A stretch of DNA of 64,000 nucleotides from Candidatus Bathyarchaeota archaeon (GCA_005881615.1 VBBR01000032.1:3183-67182); one strand, 5' to 3'; counted from the first letter of the stretch, positions 24,530-45,445 are shown. Notes: a model not told the origin generated them from the letters alone. A program made the numbers and translations.

Positions 24530-24984
24530 CAGCGAAAAGACGCAACCTCCATCAATCGACTTTCTTACTAATTAGAGTAGGAAATCATAATTCAATATTC
24601 GTGGGAAAATCTTCCGACCCCCCATTTTGAAATCAATTGTGGGAAATCGCCCATTGTCCGCCCTATTCTGAAATCTGGGACCCCCTCTGAACTCTCCCCT
24701 AAGAATCGTTCGTGTTTGGCTGAAATAATGACAGGTTTCGCCTCGGCATGCGAACTTGGATTGCGCCCTAAATCATTGGACTCGCCCATTATCATTGCAG
24801 ACACGAAATCGTCTCCCGAAAAAGTGGGGTATGTTTCAGCGGTTTTGTGACGCATGAGTGGGCTCCCCGGACCATCGTGAAAGTAATCGCCTCGAGCTAG
24901 CTCATCAATCCCGAGGATTCTCGATTACAGACAATTGAAGCCCTTATACCGATCGAAGACCCGCCGCGAAATCGCGAGATACGT

Positions 24985-31200: not shown

Positions 31201-31275
31201 CGGCTCATCTTAAGCCTCGCGCTCCCCTCCAATATTTTTCCACGCTGAAACACTCCTCTCGTAGAACCTTTTAAC

Positions 31276-33069
31276 TTGAAGAGAGGTCTCTCTCATGAGA
31301 GAACGGTGAGTACGCTCCGCGTCGCATTAGTAATCGTCCTTATGCTGATTGCAACGATAAGTCTCTCTCACACACAAGGAGCGATGGGAACTAGCCCGGC
31401 CACTCAGATAAATCGACTCTTCTACCTCTCTTCCTCAGGGGCACTTAGTTCGGCACCCCCATCGGGAAGCGCGCTCCCTTCCATGTCCAACATAACCAGC
31501 TCGCCAAGCAGTTTTTCCATTCAAACACCTCTTCTCTCATCGGCTTCGATTATCGGGCAACCTACATTCTCTATGTGGACCGATTGGACTGGAAACAAGT
31601 CCGCCCCCCCGCCCCTCTTGATAGGAGTATTCAGTTATCGGCTCCCTGGACAGATTTGGTCTAACACGACATCGACGGCGCAAACGATTTCCTCAGGACT
31701 CGGACCTCAACATCTTAACCTCACCTTGCCAACGCTTAACGCCAATTTGCTAGAAGGCACGTCCTTAGCCATTCAAGTTGTTGCGACCTTAGTTCCTCGC
31801 CACTCAAACATTACTTTAGATTGGGGGTCCGGTTCCGCTCCTTCCTTTGTCGTGCTGCCGCTCTCGGGTTATACGTCGCTATTTCAGATTAGCATTCTCA
31901 ATCACGATGAAGTCCCGACTACCTACTTCAACGTAAATGCAACTCCTGGAAACAACATCGTTCTTGTTAAGGTACTCGTCAACTCGGCCTTTGGATGTTC
32001 AGACGTATCCAAAGTCAACATGACCATTGTGGATCCTCTTTCCCGTCCCGCAGTCGGCGCATCCAACAGGGCCATGCAACAAACCCCTCCATGCCCGGCG
32101 GGACAGAGTCCCTTCGAATTCATCGCCGCTTGGACCTATCTTCCGGGCGCTGCACAGGCAACTTATCAAGTGTGGGTGGATATTATCGACATACAAGGTA
32201 ACACCGCATACAGTTATCGTGGCCCGGCTAGCTTCGGGCTCGTTCCCCCTGGTTTTATCCCACCACCTTACGATCTGATCCCATATTTCGCTGTCGCTGG
32301 CATAGGAGTTGTAGGAGTCTCAGTTGGAGCATTCTATTATCGAAGGAGAAGGGGCAAGAGCTACCTAGCCCCATTTGCACACTTCAACACCCTAACTTCC
32401 GGCGAATTGAACGGAGGAACCGTATCCATTGAAGGCAACACAGGATCGGGGAAAACCATTCTGTCCGAACAACTCATGTTCGAGGACCTCAAGCGAGGGA
32501 AGCCATGCATCTTCGTCTCCACCGGTGACTTTCCCTCTAACGTAAGATCGGGGATGAAGTCAATGGGTCTTGACGTAAGGGGTTACGAACAGAGCGGGCT
32601 CCTGACGTTTGTGGATGGATACTCGGCTGAGGCGGGGCAGGAATCGACCGAGAAATTTTCAGTCCCATCCATTGGGGACCTGACGACGCTGGGCATGAAG
32701 ATCTCATCATCTCTACCATCGCAGTCCAAGGGGGCGAGCCTCTACTTCGATTCCCTGGTCCCCCTAGCATCCAAGACGAAGCCGGAGAGTATCGTCTCGT
32801 TTGTCCAGTCGATTGGTGCGAAAATGAGAGGGATCGGAGGAAAGGCGGTTTTCACTCTGGGCCCCAGCGTCGATCCGATGGTGCAGAAACAACTAGAGGA
32901 CATGTCGGACTGTGTTGTCCAAATGGAAGCATTCGAAGAGCGCGGAGTTCGTCGTAGACGACTAAAGATTGCAAAGCTTAGAGCGAGGAGGCATCAGGAA
33001 GGTTGGAACGTCTTCGCCATAGAAGATGGAAAGGGAATAATCTTCTATTCGAAGAGGCCTAAGACCTAG
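31276..33069 (+). CDS. membrane protein: N-terminal anchor, ~280-aa extracellular domain, TM helix, cytoplasmic KaiC/RecA-like ATPase domain
   Basis: N-terminal hydrophobic helix (VALVIVLMLIATISL), a Ser/Thr-rich extracellular region, a second TM (IPYFAVAGIGVVGVSVGAFYYRRRRGK), then ...GGTVSIEGNTGSGKTILSEQLMFEDLKRGKPCIFVSTGDFP... (Walker A, KaiC/RecA-like). Confidence 0.7.
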   Translation: MKRGLSHERTVSTLRVALVIVLMLIATISLSHTQGAMGTSPATQINRLFYLSSSGALSSAPPSGSALPSMSNITSSPSSFSIQTPLLSSASIIGQPTFSMWTDWTGNKSAPPPLLIGVFSYRLPGQIWSNTTSTAQTISSGLGPQHLNLTLPTLNANLLEGTSLAIQVVATLVPRHSNITLDWGSGSAPSFVVLPLSGYTSLFQISILNHDEVPTTYFNVNATPGNNIVLVKVLVNSAFGCSDVSKVNMTIVDPLSRPAVGASNRAMQQTPPCPAGQSPFEFIAAWTYLPGAAQATYQVWVDIIDIQGNTAYSYRGPASFGLVPPGFIPPPYDLIPYFAVAGIGVVGVSVGAFYYRRRRGKSYLAPFAHFNTLTSGELNGGTVSIEGNTGSGKTILSEQLMFEDLKRGKPCIFVSTGDFPSNVRSGMKSMGLDVRGYEQSGLLTFVDGYSAEAGQESTEKFSVPSIGDLTTLGMKISSSLPSQSKGASLYFDSLVPLASKTKPESIVSFVQSIGAKMRGIGGKAVFTLGPSVDPMVQKQLEDMSDCVVQMEAFEERGVRRRRLKIAKLRARRHQEGWNVFAIEDGKGIIFYSKRPKT

Positions 33070-33815
33070 AATACCTTGTCGCGCGGGAAAACCTCTATTC
33101 CGGCGGTCCCAAATTGATATGGACGAATCTGCGTGTCATGAGCAATTCCACGCATTTTTTCGACTTGTACCGCTCGGACGAAGTTTCCTTGATGCATGAG
33201 TGTGTGAAGTACAACTACTCCGTGTGAAAGAAACTCCTCAAGTTGAAATCTTCGGTCCAAAAGCGATGTCTTCAACTCGCTCGTCACCAGAGAAGTGCAA
33301 CCCGTATCGGCCAGTGCATCGAAGAATTCCACGGTTGCTCTCCGTCTTTTCACCTCATCCCCGTACCTCAACATAATAGATGTGATAGGGTCGAGAGCGA
33401 TCCGCTCTACGTTCTCGCCCTCAACTAGTTTTGTAAGAGTTTTCAAGACCTCGGTGAAGCCGACCCCTTCAGAGGAGTCGGAAGAAAATAGCGCGTGAGG
33501 TCCATTGTTCTTGGTCTTAGTTCTCCGGAGACCGCTGGCGTCTAAGAACAGGAGTCGGCCTTTCTTCTCGACGCTATCCAGGTCCCAGTTGTAAGATTGA
33601 AAGTTCTGTTTGATCATGTCAGGATATTCGTCCAGAGTAACGTAGAGTCCTGTTTCGCCTTGAAGCGCCCCGCTGTAGAGATACTGAATCGCAAAAGTCG
33701 TCTTTCCGGAGCCAGGGCTCCCAACTACCAGAATGCATTTTCCCAAAGGGAAGCCTCCCCCGAGAAGCTCGTCGAGGCCTTTGATCCCTGTGGGAACTCT
33801 GTCCAACGCGATCAT
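33066..33815 (-). CDS. single-domain KaiC/RadA-like ATPase
   Basis: IPTGIKGLDELLGGGFPLGKCILVVGSPGSGKTTFAIQYLYSGALQGETGLYVTLDEYPD (KaiC-type Walker A region). Convergent with the previous gene and overlapping it by 4 nt. Confidence 0.8.
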   Translation of the reverse strand: MIALDRVPTGIKGLDELLGGGFPLGKCILVVGSPGSGKTTFAIQYLYSGALQGETGLYVTLDEYPDMIKQNFQSYNWDLDSVEKKGRLLFLDASGLRRTKTKNNGPHALFSSDSSEGVGFTEVLKTLTKLVEGENVERIALDPITSIMLRYGDEVKRRRATVEFFDALADTGCTSLVTSELKTSLLDRRFQLEEFLSHGVVVLHTLMHQGNFVRAVQVEKMRGIAHDTQIRPYQFGTAGIEVFPRDKVF

Positions 33816-33862
33816 TAATCAGGCGGTTATCAATGTATAAAAATAGTATTTCGAAATCAGCC

Positions 33863-34738
33863 CTAGACTTCCCGGAATTTTCCAGGTGGATTTTCCAGCC
33901 ATATTTTTGAAGAAACGACTCTAGAACTCACCTTCTCAGTTAGCACTGTGCGTGCTATGTGTCGATTTGCGGGGTCAGCTGCTAGGTTGCAGCCGAGAGC
34001 GAAGCACCAGCATACGCCGATTAGGAGAAGGAAGATGTAAGCGAGGGTGCTGAAGATTGGCCGGGTTAGGGCAGTGTAGAGGAGCGAGAAGCCCCCTGAT
34101 GCACCTATCACCATGGAGAGAATCGTGGTGTGGAAGGGACCCACATCAATGCTCCGAAGCCTCAGCCCTCCAAAGTATGGAAGCGCAAGGGCAACCAGCG
34201 GGAGCATTAGTGATGAGGTCATCGTGAGTGTCACAAAATCCTGAGTTATCAGGCTGACAATGTCTGTTGTCCGGGCGAGAGGCGAGATCAAGGGGAGGTC
34301 TTTGTGATTGGCTTCGTAGGTTGCAAAAGGTACTACAACCGCGAGGATGAATCCGAAGTACATGATCTGTCTACGAAGTTTCAGTCGCAAACCGCGGGAG
34401 GCTTGGACCGTTGAGAGTTCTGAGGTCTTGGATCCGATTACGTGAGTTCCCTTTGTGATGAAGAGATAGAGCTTAATCGCCTTCGTTGATATGACCCCGC
34501 CAAAGAAGTACATGTACGTGAACCCTATTGGAATGCCAATAAGAGAGATTACGAGGGTCAACGTCGCGCTCAACGTTAATGTGAGGAGTCCTAACTGCGC
34601 ATTTCTTGGCAGTATTCTATTCGCCGACTCGAGGATGGGAAGAACTGTAGATGATCCGATGAAAAAGAGAGCGAAAGTGGCAGCGCAGCAGACGAGTAAG
34701 TTTCGTCGGTTGTGTGAGCTTCCAGTGCCGCCTGACAA
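33863..34738 (-). CDS. integral membrane protein (about 8 TM helices)
   Basis: 291-aa ORF dominated by hydrophobic helices; no specific family recognised. Confidence 0.55.
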   Translation of the reverse strand: MSGGTGSSHNRRNLLVCCAATFALFFIGSSTVLPILESANRILPRNAQLGLLTLTLSATLTLVISLIGIPIGFTYMYFFGGVISTKAIKLYLFITKGTHVIGSKTSELSTVQASRGLRLKLRRQIMYFGFILAVVVPFATYEANHKDLPLISPLARTTDIVSLITQDFVTLTMTSSLMLPLVALALPYFGGLRLRSIDVGPFHTTILSMVIGASGGFSLLYTALTRPIFSTLAYIFLLLIGVCWCFALGCNLAADPANRHIARTVLTEKVSSRVVSSKIWLENPPGKFREV

Positions 34739-34827
34739 CGTTGCCCGAGTTGAGAATCCGGTTATTGAACAATATTTAGGAAGGCTGGTCCTCTAGCTCC
34801 ATCTAGCTAGTTAATGGAGAACTTCTC

Positions 34828-35604
34828 TTGCCTGAAGAAATGGATCTGATTCTAAAGATCGTTAGGACGTATCGTCCGACCGGCCGTGTGTCGATCCGAC
34901 GGATCGGGAGTTTCGTCAATGATGTATTCCTGGTTAAGGTGGACAACGAGAAACTGGTGGCCAAAAGGTACACGAACTGGGTGTCTCTCAAGTGGGTGAC
35001 GTTGAGTCTCTTTGGCCTGGGTTCGGTTCACTTCTCGATATCCGGGAAGAGACGGATGGAGGCTGAGTATGCCTTCAACGACCTTTTGTCACGTCGGGGG
35101 ATACCAGTGCCCTCGATTCTTGGGGCTGACCAGAAATCTAGGACGATACTGTTCTCCTTCGTTTCCGGCGACCAATTATCCAGTCTTCTTCCCAAGTTGG
35201 CCGGGGTTGCTCAAATAGGACAAAGGGAGCGAGAAGCAGCGTACCAGGCTGGAAAACTGATGGCGGGTGCACATCAGCTCGAAGCTTCGCTAGGCGATAC
35301 GAAGCCAGAGAACTTTCTCGTTGAAAAGAAAGGCGAGGTAACCCTCGTCGACCTTGAGCAAGCTCGCCACAGAGGGGATTATGCTTGGGATTTGGCGGAG
35401 TTCCTATTCTATTCAGGTCATTACTGGTTCTCGTTCAACAAAACTCTCGAGGGATACGTTGATTCCTTCATCAAGGGCTACAAGGAGCAAGGAAGTGCGA
35501 GCACGATAAGAGCTGCCGCCTCTCCACGATACGTTAGAGTCTTCTCCGTATGGACTCCCCCGAATATCCTGCATAACATGAGAAAGAAACTAACGGAGAT
35601 CTAA
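34828..35604 (+). CDS. protein-kinase-like fold protein (Bud32/RIO/Kdo-kinase-like)
   Basis: GDTKPENFLVEKKGEVTLVDLEQAR resembles a catalytic-loop (D-x-K-x-x-N) and DFG-equivalent (DLE) arrangement of small atypical kinases. Confidence 0.45.
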   Translation: MPEEMDLILKIVRTYRPTGRVSIRRIGSFVNDVFLVKVDNEKLVAKRYTNWVSLKWVTLSLFGLGSVHFSISGKRRMEAEYAFNDLLSRRGIPVPSILGADQKSRTILFSFVSGDQLSSLLPKLAGVAQIGQREREAAYQAGKLMAGAHQLEASLGDTKPENFLVEKKGEVTLVDLEQARHRGDYAWDLAEFLFYSGHYWFSFNKTLEGYVDSFIKGYKEQGSASTIRAAASPRYVRVFSVWTPPNILHNMRKKLTEI

Positions 35605-35633
35605 AGGCACCGTGATTCCTATAACTTGGTAAA

Positions 35634-35692
35634 ATCGCCCATAATCAGCCTTGATCGCGATTCTGGGATGCCGTCTGATTGCGCGGCACGAG
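35634..35692 (+). repeat. 59-bp element, copy 1 of an inverted pair (58/59 identical to 40416-40474)
   Basis: atcgcccataatcagccttgatcgcgattctgggatgccgtctgattgcgcggcacgag. Lower-identity similarity extends to about 35725. Lies in a 375-bp convergent intergenic region. Confidence 0.75.
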
Positions 35693-35979
35693 CGGTTTTC
35701 CCGGGAGTTCTCAGGTGGTAAGGTCGGCTATTTTCAGCCTTGATTCGTGATTTGAACAGGCTCGTCCGAACATGTGATATTTCGTGCTGTAAACCCGGAT
35801 AATTCCCGATCAGCAAAAGCCTGGATCGTGCTTTGATTGTTCTGTCTCGCCCATAATCACCATCAGACAGGAAATGTTCCAGGAAAAAATAGGGGGTATT
35901 AGCGACCGACCCTAGCACCGCATGAGCGGTTCTGCGAGATTGTACGGACAGGCGCTTAAACGAGGAGAGAAGGGATGTT

Positions 35980-37665
35980 CTAGAACTCTTCGTCGCCGCC
36001 GGGCGGTTTGAAGTCTTTTCCGCCACCGGCACCCTTGTCGACTCCTTTGGACGCGATGACATCGTCTATTCTCAGAATCATCGATGCAGCTTCGGAGGCG
36101 GATTTGATCACCTGCTGCTTGACTCTCAAGGGTTCGAGAACGTTCAGTTTTCGCATATCCTTCACATCACCCGTGAAGACGTCGATTCCGAACCATGGGC
36201 TCCCCGCTCGCTCGTGCTTTGAGCGCAGTTCGACCAAGACATCAATCGGGTCGAAGCCAGCGTTTTCTGCAAGCGTAGTTGGCACGGCTTCGAGTGATTC
36301 CGCGAATGCTTCGATTGCGAGCTGTTCTCTTCCGCCTACTTTTACCGCGTATTCTCGGAGGCGCTTGGCCAACTCTGCCTCAGGCGCTCCTCCCCCAGCA
36401 ACAATCTTGCCGTCTTCTAGAGCGTTTCTCACAACGCATAGCGCGTCGTGAAGTGATCTGTCCGCTTCATCGACTACATGTTCCGTTCCTCCACGAATTA
36501 CAATCGTGACTGCTTTCGGGTTCTTGGAATCGCGAATGTAGAGAAGTTTGTCATCGCCAATCTTGACTTCCTCGATAAGTTTCGCTTCTCCTAATGCGTC
36601 TTTCGCTAGATCTTTGACGCTGGCAACTATTCGTGCGCCTGTAGCCTTGGAAATTTTCTCCATATCGCCGCTGCTGACGTTCTTGACTGCGCCTATTCCT
36701 TTCTTTGCTAGATAGTGTAGTGCAACATCGTCTATTCCTTTCTCGCTAAAGACAATATTCGCGCCGGTTTTTTCGATCTGCGAAACCATGTCAACCAGCA
36801 TTTTCTCTTCTTCTTCAATGAAGAGGTGCATCTGGTCAGGATTGTTGATGTTGATCTTTGCATCGAACTCCGTCTTCTCCACTTCGATCTTGGCGTTGAG
36901 TAGAGCGATTCGCGCGCCTGTTATCGTCTTCGGCATTTGAGCATGGGCGAGTTCTTTGTCGATGACAATTCCCTTGACGAGTTCCGTTTCTTCGAGGCTC
37001 TTGCCATGTTTCTTGAGAATCTTGATCTGATCGATATCAGCCTTGATCTTACCATCGGTTTTCTCAGCAATATGCTTTACAGCTTTGACGGCGATATCCG
37101 AGAAGTGTTCTTTCGCAACCGCAATGCCCTTGCTGTACATCGATGTGGTTGCGACTTGTCGAAGGATCACATCGTCCTTCTCTGAGATAGGGATCGATAA
37201 CTTCTCAAGGATCTCGATCGCTTTCTCTGCCGCCTTCTTGTAACCATCAACAATCACTGTTGGATGGACATCCTTGTCCAACAACTTCTCCGCCTTCTCC
37301 AGAAGTTCGCCAGACAATAGGACGGCAGTCGTAGTTCCGTCGCCAACCTCGTTATCTTGGGTTTTGGATACTTCAACAAGCATTTTCGCGGCTGGATGCT
37401 GCACGTCAAGCTCCTTCATTATCGTCGCCCCATCGTTCGTGATCGTCACGTCGCCGATACTGCTTACCAGCATCTTGTCCATTCCTCGGGGTCCGAGGGT
37501 GGAGCGCACGGTTTCCGCTACAACCTTTGCAGCCGTGATGTTATTCCTCTGAGCTTCCTTACCAGTTGATCGTCCTGTTCCTTCCTTTAGGATATAGACA
37601 GGTACTCCTTGGGATCCTTGTGCAGACATTCTTTCAAGCCTTCTCGAATTGGAATTCGAAAGCAA
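35980..37665 (-). CDS. thermosome subunit (group II chaperonin)
   Basis: 561 aa with the full CCT/thermosome pattern (…GPRGMDKML…, …TITNDGATIL…, …VGDGTTT…, C-terminal GGxxGGxxM-like tail). Confidence 0.95.
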   Translation of the reverse strand: MLSNSNSRRLERMSAQGSQGVPVYILKEGTGRSTGKEAQRNNITAAKVVAETVRSTLGPRGMDKMLVSSIGDVTITNDGATIMKELDVQHPAAKMLVEVSKTQDNEVGDGTTTAVLLSGELLEKAEKLLDKDVHPTVIVDGYKKAAEKAIEILEKLSIPISEKDDVILRQVATTSMYSKGIAVAKEHFSDIAVKAVKHIAEKTDGKIKADIDQIKILKKHGKSLEETELVKGIVIDKELAHAQMPKTITGARIALLNAKIEVEKTEFDAKININNPDQMHLFIEEEEKMLVDMVSQIEKTGANIVFSEKGIDDVALHYLAKKGIGAVKNVSSGDMEKISKATGARIVASVKDLAKDALGEAKLIEEVKIGDDKLLYIRDSKNPKAVTIVIRGGTEHVVDEADRSLHDALCVVRNALEDGKIVAGGGAPEAELAKRLREYAVKVGGREQLAIEAFAESLEAVPTTLAENAGFDPIDVLVELRSKHERAGSPWFGIDVFTGDVKDMRKLNVLEPLRVKQQVIKSASEAASMILRIDDVIASKGVDKGAGGGKDFKPPGGDEEF

Positions 37666-37879
37666 GGGAGAACGGGATTTCTTAAGGTTTACCCGCTTCC
37701 CGACTGGAACCGAGGATTGTTCAGGTCAGAATCTAGACGTGCGTCGTTTCGATAGGAGATTGTTGGTGCTGTTGTTAGGATTGAGAACGTTTTGCCGAGG
37801 TTTGCAACTCAACTAGGACTTGAATGATACAAGACCAGTACCACTTTCTTCTTTCAAGGGGCAAGCCTGAAGGTACCTT

Positions 37880-38311
37880 ATGGCTTCATCGCAGAACCCG
37901 ATGGCATATTTGCTGGAAAATGGCCTTCGGAGAGTCGAAAGCGAGAGGCCCGAACTTTCGAACGACTCTAGGTATCAGGAGCTGAAGGAGCAACTGCTTC
38001 AAGATGCCGAGGGCCATTTCCGGGAGATACAGGCCACCTATGCGACTATTCTGAAGACCCAATGCCATTGCGGGGGCCAATTGGAGCCGGTGGACCACGA
38101 CTTCGGCAAGTCAGGAGGCACAATCTATGACAGCGTTATCGCAAAATGCAAGTCCTGTGGCGAGGCGCAGGCTTTCCAATTTCCTAAAGAGGGATTCATC
38201 TCGGAAGCTCGATCAGCCATGGCATTGAGAGACTATCTTCAAGCTACGTACGCGATCGACTACGCGGGCGCAGTCAGAAGCGATCTTGAGAGTCGTGCCG
38301 TAAGACACTAG
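37880..38311 (+). CDS. hypothetical protein with two CxxC pairs (possible zinc-binding)
   Basis: CHCGG...CKSCGE within a 143-aa ORF. Confidence 0.4.
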   Translation: MASSQNPMAYLLENGLRRVESERPELSNDSRYQELKEQLLQDAEGHFREIQATYATILKTQCHCGGQLEPVDHDFGKSGGTIYDSVIAKCKSCGEAQAFQFPKEGFISEARSAMALRDYLQATYAIDYAGAVRSDLESRAVRH

Positions 38312-38335
38312 AGTCTTCAGGTCCCCGTCCGCAAC

Positions 38336-38899
38336 CTAAGTGCCAACGGTTTTCTCGTACATTTTCCGGAATGTCCATCTGACAGCGTTCTTAATCTCGC
38401 TAAGACGAGTCTCGTCCCCATAGTTCTTGACGCGCAGCTGTTTCAGAAGGTTGCCCTCCTGATCGAGATCAAAAGACAACACTCGATCCGGGGATAATCC
38501 GCCCTTTCGTACAGCTTCTTCGTCTTTCTTCTGCATTGGCTCAAGCACCTTTCCGAGAAGGAAAGGCCGGAACGGCGGAGTATTGGTGTCGAACTTCATG
38601 CCTTCACCTAGTACGACGCGTAGGTTTGGGCCGTCAACGTGCATGTCAGCTAAAACCACTCCGCTGATCGTTCTAATGCTCTGCGGAGGAGCCTCCTGTT
38701 TCTTTGTGTCCTGCGCCAGAGTTTTCGGAACCTCAACTCTTCGATAGCTTCGCTCAGTGAGTAGGAGATCTATTACTTCTAGGAAGGATCTCAGTGTTCT
38801 GATCTCTTCCTCATCTTCTAGAACTTTCTTTTCGAGGTAAGCTTTCAGCTCGGCAAGCTTCTTTGTCGACCGTTCTCTCAGCTCTGACATAATCGTCAC
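38336..38899 (-). CDS. hypothetical protein
   Basis: 187 aa with an N-terminal charged/coiled segment; no family recognised. Confidence 0.45.
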   Translation of the reverse strand: MTIMSELRERSTKKLAELKAYLEKKVLEDEEEIRTLRSFLEVIDLLLTERSYRRVEVPKTLAQDTKKQEAPPQSIRTISGVVLADMHVDGPNLRVVLGEGMKFDTNTPPFRPFLLGKVLEPMQKKDEEAVRKGGLSPDRVLSFDLDQEGNLLKQLRVKNYGDETRLSEIKNAVRWTFRKMYEKTVGT

Positions 38900-38955
38900 A
38901 TGGTTGGTCGTATTGGGATTCTTAAATAATCCGAAGGCTGGTCAAACGTTGAGTT

Positions 38956-40275
38956 TTGCGGGGTCTAGAAATGCAGTACGTCGCCGCGGTAAAGGAAGTT
39001 CTGCAAGGAACCTTCGACTCAAAGCAAGTTCTCGTCCGTGGATGGCTGCAGAACAAGCGGACGGGCGGCGGAATAATCTTCCTCCTATTGCGCGATGGCT
39101 CAGGGGTTATCCAGTGTACCCTGCGAAAAGGGAAGGTCGACGAGAAGATTTTCGACGAGTTCCAGTCTGCTCGGATCGAGTCCAGTGTTGAGTTGAGAGG
39201 CGACGTTAGGCCTGATCCTCGAGCGCCTGGTGGGAGAGAGCTTCAAGTGGTTGAGGGGCGCGTCGTGCATCCTGCCCTTGAAGAGTTTCCGATTGCGAAG
39301 CAATTCCATGGTCCCGAGTTCCTCTTGGACAAGAGGCACCTGTTTGTCCGGAGCGACAAGATGCGCTCGACCCTCAGAGTTCGCGCGGTCGTTCTCTCGG
39401 CGGTGCGGGAATGGTTTGACAAGCACAGTTTCACAGAAGTTCACGTTCCAACCCTGACATCGGCCGCGGTCGAGGGCGGCGCGACCCTGTTCGAGGTGAA
39501 ATATTTTGATCAAAAAGCGTACTTGACGCAGAGTTGGCAGTTGTATGCTGAAGCGTTGATCGCTAGCATTGGCAACATCTACACTGTCGCTCCATCCTTC
39601 AGAGCCGAGAAATCTCGGACTAGGAGGCACTTGACAGAGTACTGGCACGTGGAGGCTGAGGCGCCTTGGTGTGACCTGAACTGTATAATCGGGGTGGAGG
39701 AGCAATTGTTGAGCCACATCGTAGCGACTTTGGTGGAAAAATGCAAGACCGAACTGGCACTGTTCGAGCGGAAACTGGAGGATTTGGAGAAGGTGAAGCC
39801 GCCGTTTGAGAGAGTCACATACGACCAGGCGTTCAAGATGATCGGAGAAGAAGAATCGGGAATAAAATGGGGCGACGATCTCGGGTACGAGCAGGAGAAA
39901 ATCCTGACTGCGAAATTTGATCGGCCTTTCTTCGTCACTCATTATCCCAAAAAAGCGAAGGCGTTCTATCACATGCCTGATCCGTCGAATCCAGAGGTGA
40001 CCTTGTCTGTGGACTGTTTGGCTCCTGAAGGTTACGGGGAAATTACAGGTGGAGGACAGAGGATTGAGGAATATGATGCGCTGCTGGCGAGGATTCGCGA
40101 AGAGGGATTAGACCCGAAAAGCTACGAATGGTATTTGGATCTGAGAAAGTTCGGCAGCGTCACCCATTCAGGCTTTGGACTTGGACTTGAACGGGTTGTT
40201 TCTTGGGTCTGCAATCTCGACCACATACGAGACGCAATAGCGTTTCCTCGGCTTATCAACCGAATCTACCCATAA
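38956..40275 (+). CDS. class IIb aminoacyl-tRNA synthetase, asparaginyl-tRNA synthetase-like (AsnRS/AspRS)
   Basis: N-terminal OB fold, motif 2 FRAEKSRTRRHLTEYWHVEAE (closest to the AsnRS pattern FRAE-x-S-x-T-x-RHL-x-EFW), motif 3 GGGQRIEEY...GFGLGLER. 439 aa. Confidence 0.85.
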   Translation: MRGLEMQYVAAVKEVLQGTFDSKQVLVRGWLQNKRTGGGIIFLLLRDGSGVIQCTLRKGKVDEKIFDEFQSARIESSVELRGDVRPDPRAPGGRELQVVEGRVVHPALEEFPIAKQFHGPEFLLDKRHLFVRSDKMRSTLRVRAVVLSAVREWFDKHSFTEVHVPTLTSAAVEGGATLFEVKYFDQKAYLTQSWQLYAEALIASIGNIYTVAPSFRAEKSRTRRHLTEYWHVEAEAPWCDLNCIIGVEEQLLSHIVATLVEKCKTELALFERKLEDLEKVKPPFERVTYDQAFKMIGEEESGIKWGDDLGYEQEKILTAKFDRPFFVTHYPKKAKAFYHMPDPSNPEVTLSVDCLAPEGYGEITGGGQRIEEYDALLARIREEGLDPKSYEWYLDLRKFGSVTHSGFGLGLERVVSWVCNLDHIRDAIAFPRLINRIYP

Positions 40276-40415
40276 AGCCAAGAGCGTCTCGCCCGAGTCA
40301 CGTGTCTCACCACAGTCTCCGACCTGTACAAGGGCTCAAATCGTCCCTAGATGAAGGTCCGCCGAAATGCTATCCTGTCATGACTTGATCACTTTCGAAG
40401 GGGTCTGAGGGAACC

Positions 40416-40474
40416 CTCGTGCCGCGCAATCAGACGGCATCCCCGAATCGCGATCAAGGCTGATTATGGGCGAT
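40416..40474 (-). repeat. 59-bp element, copy 2 (inverted) of the pair with 35634-35692
   Basis: ctcgtgccgcgcaatcagacggcatccccgaatcgcgatcaaggctgattatgggcgat is the reverse complement of copy 1 with a single mismatch. Lies in the convergent gap between the AsnRS-like gene and the dehydrogenase gene, overlapping the latter's last codons. Confidence 0.75.
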
Positions 40475-41456
40475 TCTTGGATCCAGCGTTGTCGAGGAGC
40501 TGCGGTTTTGCTATTCGGGCAGCGGTTTTCTGTGCTTCGGAGACTATCTTCTGCGCAAGCTCCACGCTCTCTCGGCGCTGTGCTTGAAGGGTTTGGGCAC
40601 CTATATGGCAGGTTGCCACAGTGACCCCGTTTGGGAACAATACTATGGCCTTTTCCCATTCGTCGACTGGAGGTTCAAGGTGGAAGACATCTAGCCCAGC
40701 ACCGGCTAGCTGGCCTTGCCGAAGCAGTTCCAGGAGGCTGGGACCATCAACAATGTCCCCTCTCGAAGTGTTGATCAAGTAGGAACCTCTCCTCATCATC
40801 GCTAGCCGTTTACCGTCTAGAAGATGGTGAGTCTGAGGAGTGTACGGAACATGGATCGTAACAATCTCGGATTTTTGCAGGAGTTCTTCGATGGATTCGG
40901 TGAAGTCGTAGCTGAGTCCAGGAACCCCGCGGGGCTTGATCACATCGTAACCAAGGACCTCCGCCTGGAAGCCCACTGAAAGAATCCTTGACACCTCATT
41001 TCCTATCCGGCCCGCGCGTCCGATGACCCCGACTTTTTTTCCCTGCAGCTCTTCTCCCATCAGCTGGTTCTTGATCCAGCGACCGGCCTTCATCTCGCGA
41101 TCTGCTAGGGGAATCCTTCGCAGCAACGACAAGATCAGACCAACTGTTAGCTCTGCAACGCTGGTCGAAGGTGCGGCTGGAGTGTTCCAGACCTGTATTC
41201 CTGCGGCCTTCGCTGCCTCGACATCTATGTTGTCGAGTCCTACTCCAGCTCTTCCGATGATCTTGAGATTTCTCGCTGCCTCGATCGTATTGGCATTGAG
41301 CTTCGTTCGGCCGCGAACAATTGCGATCTCGTAATTCGGGATAACTTCTGCCAGTCTTGCCTTGTCGATGCTCGCCTGATCGTCAACCTGGAAGCCTCCT
41401 GCTCGGAGAATCGCCAATCCATCAGAGTGAATAGGATCGCAAACGAGAACTCGCAA
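40464..41456 (-). CDS. D-isomer-specific 2-hydroxyacid dehydrogenase (D-3-phosphoglycerate dehydrogenase-like)
   Basis: NAD-binding GVIGRAGRIGNEV, catalytic R/E/H arrangement, 330 aa. Confidence 0.8.
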   Translation of the reverse strand: MRVLVCDPIHSDGLAILRAGGFQVDDQASIDKARLAEVIPNYEIAIVRGRTKLNANTIEAARNLKIIGRAGVGLDNIDVEAAKAAGIQVWNTPAAPSTSVAELTVGLILSLLRRIPLADREMKAGRWIKNQLMGEELQGKKVGVIGRAGRIGNEVSRILSVGFQAEVLGYDVIKPRGVPGLSYDFTESIEELLQKSEIVTIHVPYTPQTHHLLDGKRLAMMRRGSYLINTSRGDIVDGPSLLELLRQGQLAGAGLDVFHLEPPVDEWEKAIVLFPNGVTVATCHIGAQTLQAQRRESVELAQKIVSEAQKTAARIAKPQLLDNAGSKNRP

Positions 41457-41460
41457 TTCC

Positions 41461-42861
41461 CTAGTTCTCCACCGTCGTAACTGGACGGGACTTTGCTTGA
41501 GAAGCTTGAAGCTTCCGCAACAATGCCTGGGCCGCGATCGTCACTGGATCCCAGACTGGAGCTAGTGGCGGGGAGTAGCAAGTCTCTACCTGCTCGAATT
41601 CCTCTACGGTCAGTCCTAAGTGTCCGGCCATTGATGCGAAGTTGGCTCTCAAGGTGCCTCCCTCCTCACCTACAAGCTGAGCCCCTAACAACCGGCCATC
41701 CTTCAGGTCTGCCAGAAGCTTGACAGTAAGATCTTTGCCTCCAGGGTAGTATGGAAGCCGAGTAGACCCGGTCACCCTAACAGATATTGAGTGTATTCCC
41801 AATTTTTCCAAAAGTGCTGTCGTGGGTCCGAAGGAAGCTATCTCTAGGCCAAACAATTTGACAGTCGTCACGCCCGTCGAGCCGGGATACTTTGCACTGC
41901 CTCCCGCCGCATTGATCCCAGCGACCAAAGCTTGTCTGACCGCTGTCGTGGAAAGCTGAAAGAAGACATGTCGACGGGTTATTAGATCGTAGGTTTCTAT
42001 GCAGTCGCCCGCGGCATATACGTTCGGTGCAGAGGTCGCCATTCGCTCGTCTGTTTTGATTCCTCCTGATTCTCCGAGAATAATTCTGGCTTGTTTGGCC
42101 AACTCGGTGTTTGGCTTCACTCTGACTGCTACGATAACAGCATCGACTGGATGCTCTTTTCCGGGTAGGCGAACTCCAGAGACCCGACCGTTCCGGCCTA
42201 TTATTGCCTCTAGGGTCGATTGAAGATGGTACTCAACGCCATGTTCCTCAGCGCGTGTTCTGACGATCGAAGCCATGTCGGGGTCGAGTATTGCAGGGAG
42301 AATTTCTGGGACAATTTCTGCCTCGAGAACAGCTATGCCCTGGTGAAGCAGTGCTTCGGCCATTTCAGAACCTGTAAGTCCTGCTCCCACGATTGCTACT
42401 CGTTTAGCGTTGTTTTCAGCGAGATGATTTGTCAGTCTCTCAATGTCACTCAACGTCCGGACGGTGAATACTCCCTTGAGGTTGGATCCGGGGACTGATA
42501 CTGTGCTGGGCCGCGCCCCCGTCGTGACAATTAGCGTATCATACTCGATAGTCTCGGTTGAGTCGTCATTAGTCCTGATGGCTTCTAGGCTTCGCTTCTC
42601 CGTGTTGATGCTTGTGGCTTTCCAGCCGAGGCGGAGGTCTATCCGGTTCATCTGCTCATAGAAGGCTTCGTCATGTCCTATCAATGCTTCAAGGTTTGGC
42701 ACGACATGGCTGAAGGCATAGGGGAGGCCGCACCTGGAGTATTCGGGCAATTCCTCATCGCCTAGAAGAACGATCTGTGCAGTTCTGTCTGTTTTTCGTG
42801 CGTGAAACGCGGCAGTTGTACCAGAGACTCCGCAACCGATGATCACAATACGCCGGGGCAT
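41461..42861 (-). CDS. FAD-dependent pyridine nucleotide-disulfide oxidoreductase (NADH oxidase / CoA-disulfide reductase family)
   Basis: RIVIIGCGVSGTTAA (FAD GxGxxG), single redox Cys in YSRCGLPY, second dinucleotide-binding motif IVGAGLTG. Confidence 0.8.
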   Translation of the reverse strand: MPRRIVIIGCGVSGTTAAFHARKTDRTAQIVLLGDEELPEYSRCGLPYAFSHVVPNLEALIGHDEAFYEQMNRIDLRLGWKATSINTEKRSLEAIRTNDDSTETIEYDTLIVTTGARPSTVSVPGSNLKGVFTVRTLSDIERLTNHLAENNAKRVAIVGAGLTGSEMAEALLHQGIAVLEAEIVPEILPAILDPDMASIVRTRAEEHGVEYHLQSTLEAIIGRNGRVSGVRLPGKEHPVDAVIVAVRVKPNTELAKQARIILGESGGIKTDERMATSAPNVYAAGDCIETYDLITRRHVFFQLSTTAVRQALVAGINAAGGSAKYPGSTGVTTVKLFGLEIASFGPTTALLEKLGIHSISVRVTGSTRLPYYPGGKDLTVKLLADLKDGRLLGAQLVGEEGGTLRANFASMAGHLGLTVEEFEQVETCYSPPLAPVWDPVTIAAQALLRKLQASQAKSRPVTTVEN

Positions 42862-42918
42862 GGCGCTTCATGATTTCCTTCGTCCGATAACGGTTTCCTT
42901 AGCGCGGGGGAAGCCGGT

Positions 42919-43764
42919 TTGTGGGCAAGGGTTAGTTTAAAGTGGGGAAGAACGGATTTTGAGCTTAGAGAATCTATGAAAGCTAACATGAGCAATTTTC
43001 TGAGAGACGGAAAAGGGATGCTGCTCGCATATGATCAGGGTTTCGAACACGGACCCTCGGCGGACTTTAACGATAAGAACATCGATCCAAACTACATCCT
43101 CGACATCGCTGCAAAGGGAGATTTTACTGGACTAGTTCTCCACAAGGGCATTGCCGAAAAATACTATACAGGAAAAATCCCGCTCATCGTAAAGCTCAAT
43201 GGAAAGACCAGTCTGTCCAAGGGCGAACCTGTCTCGACCCAAGTTTGTAGCGTGGAAGAGGCGGTCAGCTTGGGAGCGAAGGGCGTGGGATACACCATCT
43301 ATCTGGGGAGCGCTCATGAGAGCCTGATGCTACAAGAGTTTGGCGAGATTCAGGAGGAAGCCCACGACGACGGGATTCCGGCTATCGCCTGGATCTATCC
43401 GAGGGGTGAGTCTGTGAAAAACGATACCAGCCCGGAAATAGTGTCGTACGCTGCGCGGGCCGGCCTTGAGGTCGGTGCTGATGCTGTCAAGATCAAGTAC
43501 TCTGGGTCGCCTGAGACGTTCAGCTGGGCGGTTAAGGCGGCTGGGTTGATCAAAGTATTCATGTCGGGTGGACCTAAAGCTCCAACCGACGAGACATTCC
43601 TCAGCCAGGTTAAAGGAGCGATGGACGGCGGGGCCGCCGGTCTAGCGGTCGGGCGAAACGTCTGGCAGCACCAAGAACCGCTCAAGATGGCGTCGGCTCT
43701 GAAAGAGATCATCTTTAACGGTCGCGAAGTCGATAAGGCCTTACAGCTTGTAGTAGCGCAGTAG
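42919..43764 (+). CDS. archaeal-type class I aldolase (DhnA/FbaB family; FBP aldolase or ADH synthase)
   Basis: LLAYDQGFEHGP...IKYSG... pattern of the DhnA family with the Schiff-base lysine region. Adjacent fbp/tpiA favours FBP aldolase. Confidence 0.7.
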   Translation: MWARVSLKWGRTDFELRESMKANMSNFLRDGKGMLLAYDQGFEHGPSADFNDKNIDPNYILDIAAKGDFTGLVLHKGIAEKYYTGKIPLIVKLNGKTSLSKGEPVSTQVCSVEEAVSLGAKGVGYTIYLGSAHESLMLQEFGEIQEEAHDDGIPAIAWIYPRGESVKNDTSPEIVSYAARAGLEVGADAVKIKYSGSPETFSWAVKAAGLIKVFMSGGPKAPTDETFLSQVKGAMDGGAAGLAVGRNVWQHQEPLKMASALKEIIFNGREVDKALQLVVAQ

Positions 43765-43776
43765 AGTAGGTTCTCG

Positions 43777-44697
43777 ATGGCGGCACGGAAACTCCGCGAG
43801 CTTCTTGAAACCGAGGACCGGAGTCTTGGCAAGCTTGTAGAGCTTCTTGCTGAACTCTCCCTTAGGATCGTGCGGGAGATTCCTCGAACCCTGGGAATGA
43901 CCGAGGGGGTGAATATTTACGGGGATAGACAGACAGAGCTTGATGTCTGGTCTAATGGGCTTCTGACCAAGAGGTTGCTTAGAAGCGGGCTGGTTCGACA
44001 GGTGGCCTCCGAAGAGATGGAGACGGTAATGAACGCCGATCATGGCGAGTATACTGTTGCGCTAGACCCGCTAGACGGCTCCTCGAACATCAAGACGAAC
44101 AATCTCATGGGCACAATTATTGGAATCTATCATGACGAGTCTCTTCCAGCAACCGGCCGCGACCTATTGTCTGCCCTCTATTTCCTCTACGGACCCTACG
44201 TTGAAGCGGTCGTAGGAACAAAGACCGGTGTATATCTCGCCGCCCCAGCAGGGAGGGGAATTGGGGCATCCAAATTCATCTCAACTGGAGAGCCGCACCG
44301 TCTGCCCCAGAAAGGCTCGATCTACGGGATCGGGGGATCGCGGGACAATTGGACACCAAGGGTTCGTGAATTCGCTGACAAGCTTGAGAAGAGGAAACTC
44401 AAGTTCCGATATGGTGGCTCTTTCGTGGGTGATTATAATCAAGTGCTTTGTAGCGGCGGGTTCTTCGCCTATCCCGATTTACTCGACGCCCCTGATGGAA
44501 AATATCGATTACAGTTCGAGTCGAATCCGATGGGGTACATCACCGAGAAGGCCGGTGGAAAGGCCAGCACTGGAAAAGGGAGAATACTAGATGTTGAACC
44601 TGTCAGTATATCCCAACGTGTTCCTACTTATTTGGGCAACAAGGAGTTGGTTTCTGAGTTTGAAGAGCGCTCCGGCATGAGTGCTGGTTTTTCCTAG
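43777..44697 (+). CDS. fbp: fructose-1,6-bisphosphatase, class 1 (FIG-superfamily, bacterial/eukaryal type)
   Basis: VASEEME...VALDPLDGSSNIKTNNLMGTIIGIY is the class I FBPase metal-binding signature. Confidence 0.75.
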   Translation: MAARKLRELLETEDRSLGKLVELLAELSLRIVREIPRTLGMTEGVNIYGDRQTELDVWSNGLLTKRLLRSGLVRQVASEEMETVMNADHGEYTVALDPLDGSSNIKTNNLMGTIIGIYHDESLPATGRDLLSALYFLYGPYVEAVVGTKTGVYLAAPAGRGIGASKFISTGEPHRLPQKGSIYGIGGSRDNWTPRVREFADKLEKRKLKFRYGGSFVGDYNQVLCSGGFFAYPDLLDAPDGKYRLQFESNPMGYITEKAGGKASTGKGRILDVEPVSISQRVPTYLGNKELVSEFEERSGMSAGFS

Positions 44698-44709
44698 GAA
44701 AGCCAGGGG

Positions 44710-45408
44710 ATGAATCGAATAAAACGAATCCGAACCCCGCTGATACTTGTGAACTTCAAAACCTACATTGAGGCGACCGGAAAGAGGGGTGTTGAGCTAG
44801 CGAAAATCGCTGATCAGGTTTCGAGAGATAGCGGAGTGACCATTGCAGTTGCGCCACAGTTCACTGACTTGAAGACCGTAACTGAGGCTGTCGAGATACC
44901 TGTTTTCAGCCAACACATAGATCCTATCAAGCCTGGTGCCTATACGGGTCATGTCTTGGCCGAGGCGGTCAAGGCCGCAGGCGCATCGGCAACGCTTCTG
45001 AATCACTCTGAGAGGCGAATCAGGATATCAGACATTGAGGAGGTTCTCTCCTTTGCAAGAGTCTCTGACCTTGCCACTCTGGTATGCACTGACACCCCCG
45101 GTGTAAGCGCAGCGGTTGCTTCACTCAACCCCGACATTATCGCTATTGAACCTCCAGACCTCATAGGAACTGGGGTTGCTGTTTCGAAAGCTCGGCCGGA
45201 GCTAATCACGAATGCGATTAAACGGATTAGGTCAATCAATAACTCCGTCGACATTCTGTGTGGTGCAGGGGTAAGCACGGCAGTGGATGTCGGCAAAGCA
45301 CTTGAGCTTGGAACCCGTGGTGTGCTCGTCTCAAGTAGTGTCGTAAAAGGAACGAATCCGGGCCAGCTATTGGAGAACATGACCGACGAAGTCCTCAGGT
45401 CCAAGTAA
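44710..45408 (+). CDS. tpiA: triosephosphate isomerase (archaeal short type)
   Basis: LILVNFKTY...NHSERR...IAIEPPDLIGTG... matches archaeal TIM (~230 aa). Confidence 0.85.
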   Translation: MNRIKRIRTPLILVNFKTYIEATGKRGVELAKIADQVSRDSGVTIAVAPQFTDLKTVTEAVEIPVFSQHIDPIKPGAYTGHVLAEAVKAAGASATLLNHSERRIRISDIEEVLSFARVSDLATLVCTDTPGVSAAVASLNPDIIAIEPPDLIGTGVAVSKARPELITNAIKRIRSINNSVDILCGAGVSTAVDVGKALELGTRGVLVSSSVVKGTNPGQLLENMTDEVLRSK

Positions 45409-45445
45409 GGGTTCTTCATGGTTAGTGGCTAAATAGAAGCGAAGA

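What the first reader, a model, noticed from the sequence alone, without database searches (positions are those of the whole stretch)
35634..40474. Near-identical 59-bp inverted repeat pair (58/59) bracketing the 4.7-kb thermosome-AsnRS segment
Copy 1 (35634-35692, plus strand) and copy 2 (40416-40474, reverse complement) differ by one base. Weaker similarity extends about 30 nt further on one side. Both lie in convergent intergenic regions, i.e. 3' of genes on both sides. The element has internal dyad symmetry (aatcag…ctgatt, atcgcgat). Options: two copies of a small structured RNA gene, a MITE-like element, or recombination substrates that could invert the thermosome/AsnRS block.
Basis: seen in the sequence. 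Interest (0 to 1): 0.6.

Follow-up and report, generated by a model that had tools for sequence, protein, structure and literature searches.

The report
Repeat-flanked flippable thermosome–AsnRS gene block
The two near-identical 60-bp inverted sequences are shortened copies of a previously undescribed ~250-bp repeat scattered through the genomes of a group of soil archaea (Bathyarchaeia). The 4.7-kb gene block between them occurs in both orientations in natural populations, so the repeats mark a real, recurrently flipping inversion rather than an RNA gene.

Summary
The arms are 35633-35692 (+) and 40416-40475 (-), 60 nt, 59/60 identical, with none expected by chance.

**What the arms are**
- They are not a structured RNA gene. 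Rfam gives no match, folding energy equals that of shuffled sequence, and there is no covariation.
- Each arm is an internally deleted "mini" copy of a ~230-265-bp intergenic repeat unit: the 5' 49 nt joined to about 20 nt of the 3' end.
- The family has a sharp 5' boundary, (A)AATCGCCCATAATCAGCCCTGAT. It sits at about 40 distinct loci in soil Bathyarchaeia metagenomes, often in tandem.
- The window holds two further full-length units, at 24643-24889 and 35722-35945.
- The family has no terminal inverted repeats, no target-site duplications and no transposase partner that I could find.

**The inversion**
- In contigs 99.4-99.9% identical to the window, 13 records have the window's gene order (Bud32-like kinase | thermosome … AsnRS | 2-hydroxyacid dehydrogenase).
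- Seven records have the 4.7-kb block inverted, with both reciprocal junctions inside the repeat.
- Both SNP haplotype groups of the block occur in both orientations.
- Related species also carry the inverted order; one of them has its own 200-bp, 94%-identical inverted repeat.
- No recombinase lies within about 10 kb.

The most likely mechanism is homologous recombination between inverted copies of a dispersed repeat, with little functional consequence. I could not check read-level evidence.

The parts
35633..35692 (+). Inverted-repeat arm 1: core of the 'mini' repeat unit downstream of the Bud32/APH-like kinase gene
   Evidence: nhmmer against the family profile matches 35631-35679 to profile positions 1-49 (E 7e-13).
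40416..40475 (-). Inverted-repeat arm 2: 'mini' unit downstream of, and overlapping the last codons of, the 2-hydroxyacid dehydrogenase gene
   Evidence: nhmmer hit 40476-40426 (E 1.4e-12). In other strains (L002, L003, L007, L118, L001) the same copy is full length, with about 150 extra nt after ...GTCTGATTG.
35693..40415 (.). Invertible 4.7-kb segment: thermosome, 143-aa and 184/187-aa hypothetical proteins, AsnRS
   Evidence: Window 35633-40429 aligns in reverse orientation in L001 at 99.7% identity while both outer flanks stay collinear.
35627..35721 (+). Mini unit at junction 1 with its weakly similar 3' extension, bracketed by the hexamer TGGTAA (35627-35632 and 35716-35721)
   Evidence: (direct repeat D2). 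The hexamer could be a duplication scar. No such signal exists family-wide.
35722..35945 (+). Older, diverged full-length repeat unit at junction 1. It contains the second TCGCCCATAATCA motif at about 35847.
   Evidence: nhmmer 35734-35933, E 6e-29. It is 78% identical to the unit at the same position in L010.
35880..35897 (-). C-rich stretch followed by a T6 run (CCCCCTATTTTTTCC on the minus strand), about 85 nt downstream of the thermosome stop. It is terminator-like and part of the conserved 3' block of the unit.
   Evidence: Sequence. The block AGAAAAAaGGGGGT is conserved across the family. That it acts as an archaeal oligo-T terminator is inference.
24643..24889 (+). Third locus: a full-length unit of the same family, between a 112-aa ORF and an NTP-transferase gene
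   Evidence: nhmmer E 1e-40. Sequence. It is 74% identical to the full junction-2 unit of L002. It is present in all 10 same-species contigs examined.
34828..35604 (+). Outer flanking gene K: APH/Bud32-like kinase
   Evidence: Pfam PF01636. JGI names homologues 'Bud32'.
35980..37629 (-). Thermosome subunit (inner gene, T side)
   Evidence: Pfam Cpn60_TCP1, E 9e-189. The exact 549-aa product is found on 9 contigs.
38971..40275 (+). Asparaginyl-tRNA synthetase-type class II aaRS (inner gene, A side)
   Evidence: Pfam tRNA-synt_2 plus the anticodon OB fold.
40464..41456 (-). Outer flanking gene H: D-2-hydroxyacid dehydrogenase. Its ORF reads into the repeat and ends ...NRP-stop.
   Evidence: Other unrelated genes end the same way in family copies elsewhere.

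Best explanation
The two arms are inverted copies of an internally deleted member of a dispersed ~230-265-bp intergenic repeat family. The family is confined, as far as I could see, to one clade of soil Bathyarchaeia.

One copy follows the kinase gene and the other follows the 2-hydroxyacid dehydrogenase gene. Together they bracket thermosome, two small ORFs and AsnRS. Recombination between the arms flips the 4.7-kb block. This is most likely ordinary homology-dependent (RadA-type) recombination within the shared 49-65 bp.

Both orientations coexist in the species, and flips have happened more than once. Every gene in the block keeps its own promoter, and both junctions supply equivalent 3' flanks. 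The inversion is therefore probably a tolerated structural polymorphism, not a regulatory switch.

Shown here: the repeat, its family, both orientations, and reciprocal junctions inside the repeat. Inferred: the recombination pathway, near-neutrality, and how the family spreads.
For: - **Repeat is real.** 60 nt, 59/60 identical, 0 expected by chance.
- **Inverted order in the same species (99.4-99.9% nt identity).** L001 has kinase | AsnRS … thermosome | dehydrogenase, with breakpoints inside the repeat and both reciprocal junctions on one 27.8-kb contig. The same holds for WNGD01000214.1, a 56-kb contig. Single inverted junctions occur in ERZ27253182, ERZ27253226, WNFX01000176.1, WNGJ01041364.1 and WNGH01171259.1. 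Thirteen records show the window's order.
- **Recombinant junctions are exact.** Examples are K–5' block–150-nt insert–AsnRS side paired with H–mini–thermosome side.
- **Recurrent flipping.** Inner-segment SNPs form two haplotype groups, and each occurs in both orientations.
- **Other species.** L011 (about 90-93% aa identity) is inverted and has its own 200-bp, 94% inverted repeat of the same family at the junctions. L185 and L186-188 are also inverted. Species whose two junction units have diverged (L009, L010, L013, L017, L018, L176, L180) all have the standard order.
- **Dispersed family.** 99 metagenome contigs carry the 23-nt head motif. The 83 long enough to compare fall into 42 clusters, most of them unrelated loci. 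nhmmer finds 145 hits, 104 near full length, with tandem arrays common. The window holds 4 hits.
- **No recombinase.** None among neighbours within about 10 kb, and none in the two hypothetical ORFs inside the block.
Against: - All evidence for the inverted state comes from short-read metagenome assemblies. I could not inspect reads, so repeat-induced misjoins cannot be formally excluded.
- Some ENA and NCBI records may be re-assemblies of the same samples, so the seven inverted records may represent fewer than seven independent samples.
- L185 and L186-188 are inverted yet lack a repeat pair today. Not every historical flip can therefore be tied to the repeat.
- The position-32 SNP is polymorphic at both copies. 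Crossover sites cannot be mapped finely enough to separate general from site-specific recombination.
Confidence: 0.75

Rival explanations
1. The inverted contigs are assembly chimeras created at the repeat, and only the window's orientation exists in nature.
For: All data are short-read metagenome assemblies. Repeats are classic sources of misjoins. No read-level check was possible.
Against: - Seven records from at least two assembly pipelines show the inverted order (MEGAHIT 'k141' contigs and NCBI WN** assemblies).
- Two contigs of 28 and 56 kb carry both reciprocal junctions.
- The shared stretch (49-65 nt) is shorter than the final k of 141 implied by the 'k141' contig names.
- Related species have the inverted order fixed, including L186-188 in three separate records with a 37-nt kinase–AsnRS spacer and no repeat to misjoin.
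- The arms of L011 differ at 6% of positions, so they are distinguishable to an assembler.
Confidence: 0.07
2. The block is a programmed invertible element. A dedicated site-specific recombinase recognises the conserved head motif of the repeat and flips the segment as a switch.
For: The crossover in the insert-bearing recombinants must lie within the conserved 49-nt head block. Flips recur in both haplotype groups. The head motif is the most conserved part of the family.
Against: - No recombinase or transposase domain appears in any gene within about 10 kb or in the two small ORFs inside the block.
- The same motif occurs at other loci in the same genome, including 24643 in this window. A recombinase acting on it would scramble the chromosome.
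- Inversion changes no promoter–gene or coding junction, so there is nothing obvious to switch.
- Inversion tracks the length and identity of shared sequence across species, which fits homology dependence.
Confidence: 0.1
3. The repeats are copies of a non-autonomous transposable element (a MITE or an IS200/IS605-type derivative), and transposase action placed them and drives the rearrangements.
For: - The family is multi-copy and intergenic, with a sharp 5' boundary, internal-deletion derivatives that keep both ends (window; L013 independently), and tandem copies.
- Relatives L012 and L015 have empty junction sites.
- Units at one position are replaced by paralogous types between species.
- Several unrelated genes read into the element and end NRP-stop.
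Against: - No terminal inverted repeats: local score 6.9, against 6.9 for shuffled sequence.
- No target-site duplication: 4.38 nt shared, against 4.47 in mismatched pairs.
- No conserved target word upstream (listing).
- No copy enclosing an ORF in about 1.3 Mb of fetched DNA.
- No match in viral, phage or plasmid collections.
- Block-wise conservation with variable spacers is not what neutral decay of a MITE gives.
- Unit replacement can equally be gene conversion.
Confidence: 0.3
4. Each copy is a gene for a small structured RNA (60-90 nt), or the ~250-nt unit is a structured non-coding RNA.
For: The sequence has short dyads. Blocks are conserved across many copies. The unit often sits just downstream of a co-oriented gene.
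Against: - No Rfam match at gathering score or at E<=10.
- MFE z-scores are -0.07 to -0.60 for the arms. The means are +0.09 (forward) and +0.42 (reverse) for 19 units (mononucleotide shuffles).
- RNAalifold gives -2.6 / -5.3 kcal/mol with no helices supported by covariation.
- The candidate hairpin in the head block is not maintained across copies (by eye, from the sequences).
- The 60-mer is a deletion product lacking about 150 nt of the unit.
Confidence: 0.05

Closest known systems
Inversions by homologous recombination between inverted copies of dispersed repeats (IS elements, rRNA operons, duplicated genes). One example is the S. cerevisiae chromosome XIV 'flip/flop' region (PMC9731477; abstract only, seen).
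   Same: The inverted repeats sit exactly at both breakpoints. Both orientations segregate in natural populations. Flips recur. The repeat copies show signs of homogenisation or gene conversion.
   Different: The repeats here are very short (49-65 bp identical) and non-coding, and they belong to an undescribed archaeal repeat family. The evidence is metagenomic rather than from isolates.
Modular intergenic repeats of bacteria: BOX elements of Streptococcus pneumoniae, ERIC/IRU and the RU-1/2/3 units (own knowledge; abstracts of PMC2759123 and PMC3184786).
   Same: The units are 100-300 bp, non-coding, intergenic and multi-copy. They are built of conserved blocks, with variants lacking the middle module. 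They often lie near gene 3' ends. No transposase is encoded.
   Different: There is no sequence similarity. The host is archaeal. No stable stem-loop or palindromic core was found. Tandem head-to-tail dimers are frequent.
Prokaryotic MITEs (review PMC10969869; abstract only).
   Same: The elements are small, non-autonomous-looking and dispersed. Deletion derivatives keep both ends. Copies can extend or terminate neighbouring ORFs.
   Different: No terminal inverted repeats, target-site duplications or partner IS were found.
Site-specific invertible DNA switches (invertons, shufflons, Hin/Gin-type systems; own knowledge).
   Same: A DNA segment bounded by short inverted repeats is found in both orientations.
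   Different: No recombinase lies nearby. The segment carries complete housekeeping genes with their own promoters. No promoter or coding fusion changes on inversion.

Membership tests
Repeat-mediated (homologous-recombination) inversion polymorphism | Inverted repeats at both breakpoints | tested here: met
   Arms 35633-35692 and 40416-40475, 59/60 identical. L001 breakpoints map inside them.
Repeat-mediated (homologous-recombination) inversion polymorphism | Both orientations observed, with both reciprocal recombinant junctions | tested here: met
   13 standard and 7 inverted records in the same species. L001 and WNGD01000214.1 each carry both junctions.
Repeat-mediated (homologous-recombination) inversion polymorphism | Read-level or long-read support for both orientations, excluding assembly error | not testable with these tools
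   No read data are available. Only assembled contigs were examined.
Repeat-mediated (homologous-recombination) inversion polymorphism | Crossover points distributed along the homology rather than at one fixed site | tested here: inconclusive
   Insert-bearing recombinants place the crossover within the 49-nt head block. The only internal SNP (position 32) is polymorphic at both copies.
MITE | Small, non-coding, multi-copy, dispersed | tested here: met
   Units of ~230-265 bp. The 83 comparable metagenome contigs fall into 42 clusters. nhmmer gives 145 hits.
MITE | Terminal inverted repeats | tested here: not met
   The 5' 45 nt against the reverse complement of the 3' 100 nt gives a mean local score of 6.9, against 6.9 ± 1.3 for shuffled sequence (34 units).
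MITE | Target-site duplications flanking each copy | tested here: not met
   The longest shared word between upstream and downstream flanks is 4.38 nt, against 4.47 nt in mismatched pairs. Only the junction-1 mini copy is bracketed by TGGTAA.
MITE | Cognate autonomous IS with matching ends and a transposase | tested here: inconclusive
   None was seen in about 1.3 Mb of fetched loci or in viral, plasmid or phage collections. Complete genomes of the host were not available.
IS200/IS605-derived element (PATE) | Conserved subterminal hairpins at both ends and a fixed 4-5-nt target word 5' of the left end | tested here: not met
   There is no stable or covarying hairpin. The candidate CCCTGAT…ATCTGGG stem is not maintained across copies (sequences). 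Upstream flanks show no conserved word (listing).
Site-specific invertible switch (inverton/shufflon) | Recombinase gene adjacent to or inside the invertible segment | tested here: not met
   Pfam and NCBIfam scans of all genes in and around the block, within about 10 kb, find no recombinase.
Site-specific invertible switch (inverton/shufflon) | Inversion reconnects a promoter or alternative coding segment | tested here: not met
   The block contains four complete genes arranged as two divergent pairs with internal intergenic regions. The junctions are 3'-to-3' in both orientations.
Structured non-coding RNA gene (Rfam family, C/D-box sRNA and similar) | Match to a curated covariance model | tested here: not met
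   Only a tRNA at 10162-10274 reaches gathering score in the window. There are 0 matches at E<=10 in 35500-36000.
Structured non-coding RNA gene (Rfam family, C/D-box sRNA and similar) | Thermodynamic stability or covariation above background | tested here: not met
   z-scores are about 0. RNAalifold energy is -2.6 / -5.3 kcal/mol.
Structured non-coding RNA gene (Rfam family, C/D-box sRNA and similar) | A discrete transcript | not testable with these tools
   No expression data are available.
REP/BOX-type modular intergenic repeat | Intergenic, multi-copy, modular with module-loss variants and arrays | tested here: met
   Conserved blocks separated by variable spacers. Independent internal deletions in the window and in L013. 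Tandem arrays.
REP/BOX-type modular intergenic repeat | Palindromic stem-loop core | tested here: not met
   No conserved stable hairpin was found.

The most novel reading that the evidence does not exclude
The ~250-bp units may be functional chromosomal modules rather than passive repeats. For example, they could be a lineage-specific, self-propagating 3'-end or bidirectional-terminator cassette, or an array of binding sites (TCGCCCATWATCA occurs twice per unit) for an unknown DNA-binding or recombination protein. In that case the thermosome–AsnRS block would be flipped by a dedicated mechanism acting on the conserved head motif. That would make it a new kind of archaeal mobile or invertible system with no terminal inverted repeats, no target-site duplications and no linked recombinase.
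Probability: 0.12. Interest if true: 0.75.

Novelty: new member of a known kind. Interest (0 to 1): 0.5.

Why it matters
This is a concrete, checkable case of structural polymorphism in an uncultured soil archaeon. A block of essential housekeeping genes (chaperonin and an aminoacyl-tRNA synthetase) exists in two orientations within one species and has flipped repeatedly across a clade, using only 50-65 bp of shared repeat.

It also brings to light a previously undescribed, block-conserved intergenic repeat family in soil Bathyarchaeia. That family breaks metagenome assemblies, extends or terminates neighbouring ORFs (the …NRP-stop endings) and turns over between loci.

For people who assemble genomes and compare gene order, the practical point is that gene-order differences at these loci can be real. 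For archaeal genome biology, the family is a candidate for a new mobile or regulatory element that deserves RNA-seq and long-read follow-up.

Tried and rejected
- **Rfam.** I scanned the whole window at gathering score and 35500-36000 at E<=10. Only an intron-containing tRNA elsewhere was found. ARAGORN found nothing.
- **Folding.** Both arms on both strands and 19 full units fold no better than shuffled sequence. My first script with a dinucleotide shuffle timed out, so one search uses mononucleotide shuffles. RNAalifold on 25 units, both strands, gave no consensus structure.
- **GTDB exact scan.** A 21-nt core of the repeat gave 0 hits in representative genomes. The host species is not a representative, or its copies differ.
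- **Recombinase hunt.** The two hypothetical ORFs inside the block (143 and 187 aa) have no Pfam or NCBIfam hit. The neighbours are housekeeping genes.
- **MITE tests.** Terminal inverted repeats and target-site duplications were both negative. An IS200/605-like target word and a hairpin were not seen.
- **Mobile-element collections.** IMG/VR pattern scan, and blastn against phage and plasmid collections, all gave no match.
- **Terminator/promoter scan.** The consensus scan of 35500-40700 gave nothing above shuffles. It uses bacterial models, so it says little about an archaeon.
- **Presence/absence at the third locus (24643).** The unit is present in all 10 same-species contigs. This gave no empty site from which to define exact ends.
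- **Strict link to convergent gene pairs.** An ORF-based context survey shows mixed contexts, with only a bias towards lying just downstream of a co-oriented gene.
- **Literature.** Two full-text searches found no description of this repeat or inversion in Bathyarchaeia.
- **Crossover mapping.** Using the position-32 SNP to map crossovers was abandoned once that SNP proved polymorphic at both copies.

Full report
**1. The observation**

The repeat finder reports one strong inverted pair in 34000-42000: arms 35633-35692 and 40416-40475, 60 nt, 98% complementary, 4723 nt apart. Each half of the repeat occurs exactly twice in the 64-kb window, with 0.00 expected from dinucleotide shuffles. The only difference is at repeat position 32 (T in copy 1, G in copy 2).

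- an APH/Bud32-like kinase, 34828-35604 (+), here called K;
- copy 1;
- a thermosome subunit, 35980-37629 (-), here T;
- a 143-aa ORF (+) and a 184/187-aa ORF (-);
- AsnRS, 38971-40275 (+), here A;
- copy 2;
- a D-2-hydroxyacid dehydrogenase, 40464-41456 (-), here H.

Both copies have the same orientation relative to the outer gene (K→copy 1, H→copy 2). Copy 2 supplies the last three codons and the stop of H (…NRP-stop). A diverged third copy sits 89 nt downstream of copy 1 (D2).

**2. Not a structured RNA**

Rfam finds only an intron-containing tRNA elsewhere in the window, and nothing at E<=10 around copy 1. Folding of either strand of either arm equals shuffled sequence (z -0.07 to -0.60).

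**3. Both orientations exist**

Looking up the exact thermosome protein in public assemblies returned contigs 99.4-99.9% identical to the window.

- Most have the window's order.
- L001 (ERZ27315388, 27.8 kb) has K(+) | A(-) … T(+) | H(-). Window 28634-35691 and 40412-50128 align collinearly, while 35633-40429 aligns reversed.
- The junction sequences are exact recombinants within the repeat.

Further look-ups and a metagenome scan added more inverted records:
- WNGD01000214.1, 56 kb, with both junctions;
- ERZ27253182 and ERZ27253226, both ~55-kb contigs;
- WNFX01000176.1;
- WNGJ01041364.1 (A…T | H);
- WNGH01171259.1 (H | T-side).

In all there are 7 inverted records against 13 standard ones.

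SNPs inside the 4.7-kb block define two haplotype groups.
- Group alpha is standard in the window, L002, L003 and L007, and inverted in L001.
- Group beta is standard in L118, and inverted in L158, L160, WNGD, L161 and L137.

Both backgrounds therefore occur in both orientations, which means at least two flips, or flips back.

**4. The 60-mer is a deletion derivative**

In L001, L002, L003, L007 and L118, the copy next to AsnRS carries about 150 extra nt after …GTCTGATTG. The sequence then resumes with TGCGCGGCACGAGCGGTT.

The window's copies therefore join the 5' 49 nt of a longer unit to its 3' end. The deletion lies between short direct repeats (TTGTGCGC / TTTTGCGCG). L013 shows an independent internal deletion of the same unit at the same place (AATCGCCCATAATCAGCCCT | CGCGTCGCATGAGTGG).

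At junction 1 the mini copy lies upstream of an older, diverged full-length unit (35722-35945).

**5. A dispersed family**

The host is a soil Bathyarchaeia lineage. The closest GTDB genomes are 'Candidatus Bathyarchaeota BA_n' MAGs.

A scan of JGI metagenomes for AATCGCCCATAATCAGCCYTGAT gave 99 contigs. Only about 17 are this locus. The 83 long enough to compare fall into 42 clusters, most of them unrelated loci.

Alignment shows a ~230-265-bp unit with a sharp 5' boundary and conserved blocks separated by variable spacers:
- head: (A)AATCGCCCATAATCAGCCCTGATCTCGAATCTGGGA;
- …TCGTTC… and GTTTCGCC;
- AAGCCCAGACCGTGCCCTGAATCGCCTGACTCGCCCATTATCAGTGCCAGACAGGAAAT;
- AGAAAAAAGGGGGTCTTAGCGA…CTCGCGACGCATGAGTGGTTCTCCGGA.

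An nhmmer profile gave these results:
- 4 hits in the window, including a full unit at 24643-24871 (E 1e-40);
- 145 hits in the metagenome loci, 104 near full length, with frequent head-to-tail dimers and arrays ending in a lone head fragment;
- among GTDB relatives, hits only in the closer ones (L009-L011, L013, L017, L018, L025, L038);
- L012 and L015 have short, empty junctions.

Upstream genes are unrelated housekeeping genes: ADP-forming acetyl-CoA synthetase, a family-B DNA polymerase, a HerA-like ATPase and methionine aminopeptidase (the first three named from reading their translated sequences, without a domain scan). Several of them read into the element and end NRP-stop. The wider gene context is mixed.

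**6. What the family is not**

- There are no terminal inverted repeats and no target-site duplications.
- No consensus RNA structure or stability was found.
- There are no viral, phage or plasmid matches.
- No ORF-bearing version appears in the DNA held.
- I found no description in the literature.

Units do turn over between loci. The full junction-2 unit of this species is closest to the paralogue at 24643 (74%), not to units at the same position in relatives (62-67%). The junction-1 unit of L013 is of the L010 junction-2 type (87%). This fits either mobility or gene conversion.

**7. Across species**

- The standard order is found in distant relatives (L014, L015, L019), in L012, and in L009, L010, L013, L017, L018, L176-179 and L180-184.
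- L011 is inverted and has a 200-bp, 94%-identical inverted repeat of the family at its junctions.
- L185 and L186-188 are inverted but lack a repeat pair now. L186 has a 37-nt K–A spacer.

The block has therefore flipped several times in this clade. Where flips are recent or polymorphic, long and similar inverted units are present. Where the two junction units have diverged, the order is standard.

**8. Mechanism**

The best-supported reading is homology-dependent recombination between inverted copies of a dispersed repeat.
- The junctions are 3'-to-3' in both orientations, and the four genes form two divergent pairs with internal promoter regions. Nothing is visibly rewired by the flip.
- No recombinase is encoded within about 10 kb or inside the block.
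- A site-specific mechanism acting on the conserved head block cannot be excluded, because crossovers cannot be mapped more finely than the 49-nt block.
- Assembly error is unlikely, for the reasons listed under the rival explanations, but it is not formally excluded without reads.

**9. Verdict**

The inversion idea is supported, the MITE idea is half right, and the RNA idea is not supported.

As a kind of phenomenon this is known: repeat-mediated inversion polymorphism and a modular intergenic repeat. The repeat family and this instance are new. Interest is moderate. It would rise if the family proved to be a functional or mechanistically novel element.

Noticed in passing
window 10162-10274 (-): Rfam finds a 113-nt tRNA (44.9 bits). 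ARAGORN in its bacterial setting misses it. The length suggests an archaeal intron-containing tRNA gene.
   Followed up: no
window ~21000-24064 (Snf7-like 22831-23439, CdvA-like 23558-24064): A Cdv/ESCRT-type cell-division cluster lies upstream of the third repeat unit: a Vps4-like AAA ATPase, Snf7/ESCRT-III and CdvA. An AsnC-type HTH gene and an ABC ATPase sit between them. The annotation comes from same-species contigs.
   Followed up: partly
window ~45400-49500 (L001 16968-21018): Haem-copper oxidase genes (COX15/CtaA, COX2, a 768-aa probable subunit I, COX4_pro) lie next to FBPase, TIM and DeoC genes. This implies aerobic respiration in this soil Bathyarchaeia lineage.
   Followed up: no
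L014 6753-6844 and 11374-11464: A distant relative (a Centralia MAG labelled 'bacterium') has a 92-nt, 85%-identical DIRECT repeat in the same two intergenic regions. It contains TATCGCCCATAGGGCCC, reminiscent of the head motif. This may be a related family in a different orientation.
   Followed up: no
L084, L074, L097, L076 (acetyl-CoA synthetase), L077 (DNA polymerase B), window 40464-40475: Several unrelated genes have their reading frames run into the repeat head and end with the same three residues, N-R-P, then TAA. The repeat rewrites protein C-termini.
   Followed up: partly
L066 6601-7104 (and 8 similar contigs): This is an array of two full tandem units followed by a lone 25-30-nt head fragment that abuts unrelated sequence. 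The layout head–body–head–body–head hints that the head motif bounds each unit on both sides.
   Followed up: partly
window 33066-33815 and 31276-33069; L001 2673-5182: Two adjacent KaiC/RecA-superfamily ATPase genes (PF06745, DUF7504) lie just upstream of the kinase gene. Their arrangement is conserved across the clade.
   Followed up: no
window 40416-40430 versus L002 7210-7225: The window's copy 2 has a private 1-nt deletion (GAG-GGTT against GAGCGGTT in every other contig). Its junction-2 haplotype (mini, G32, AsnRS side, standard order) was not seen in any other record.
   Followed up: partly
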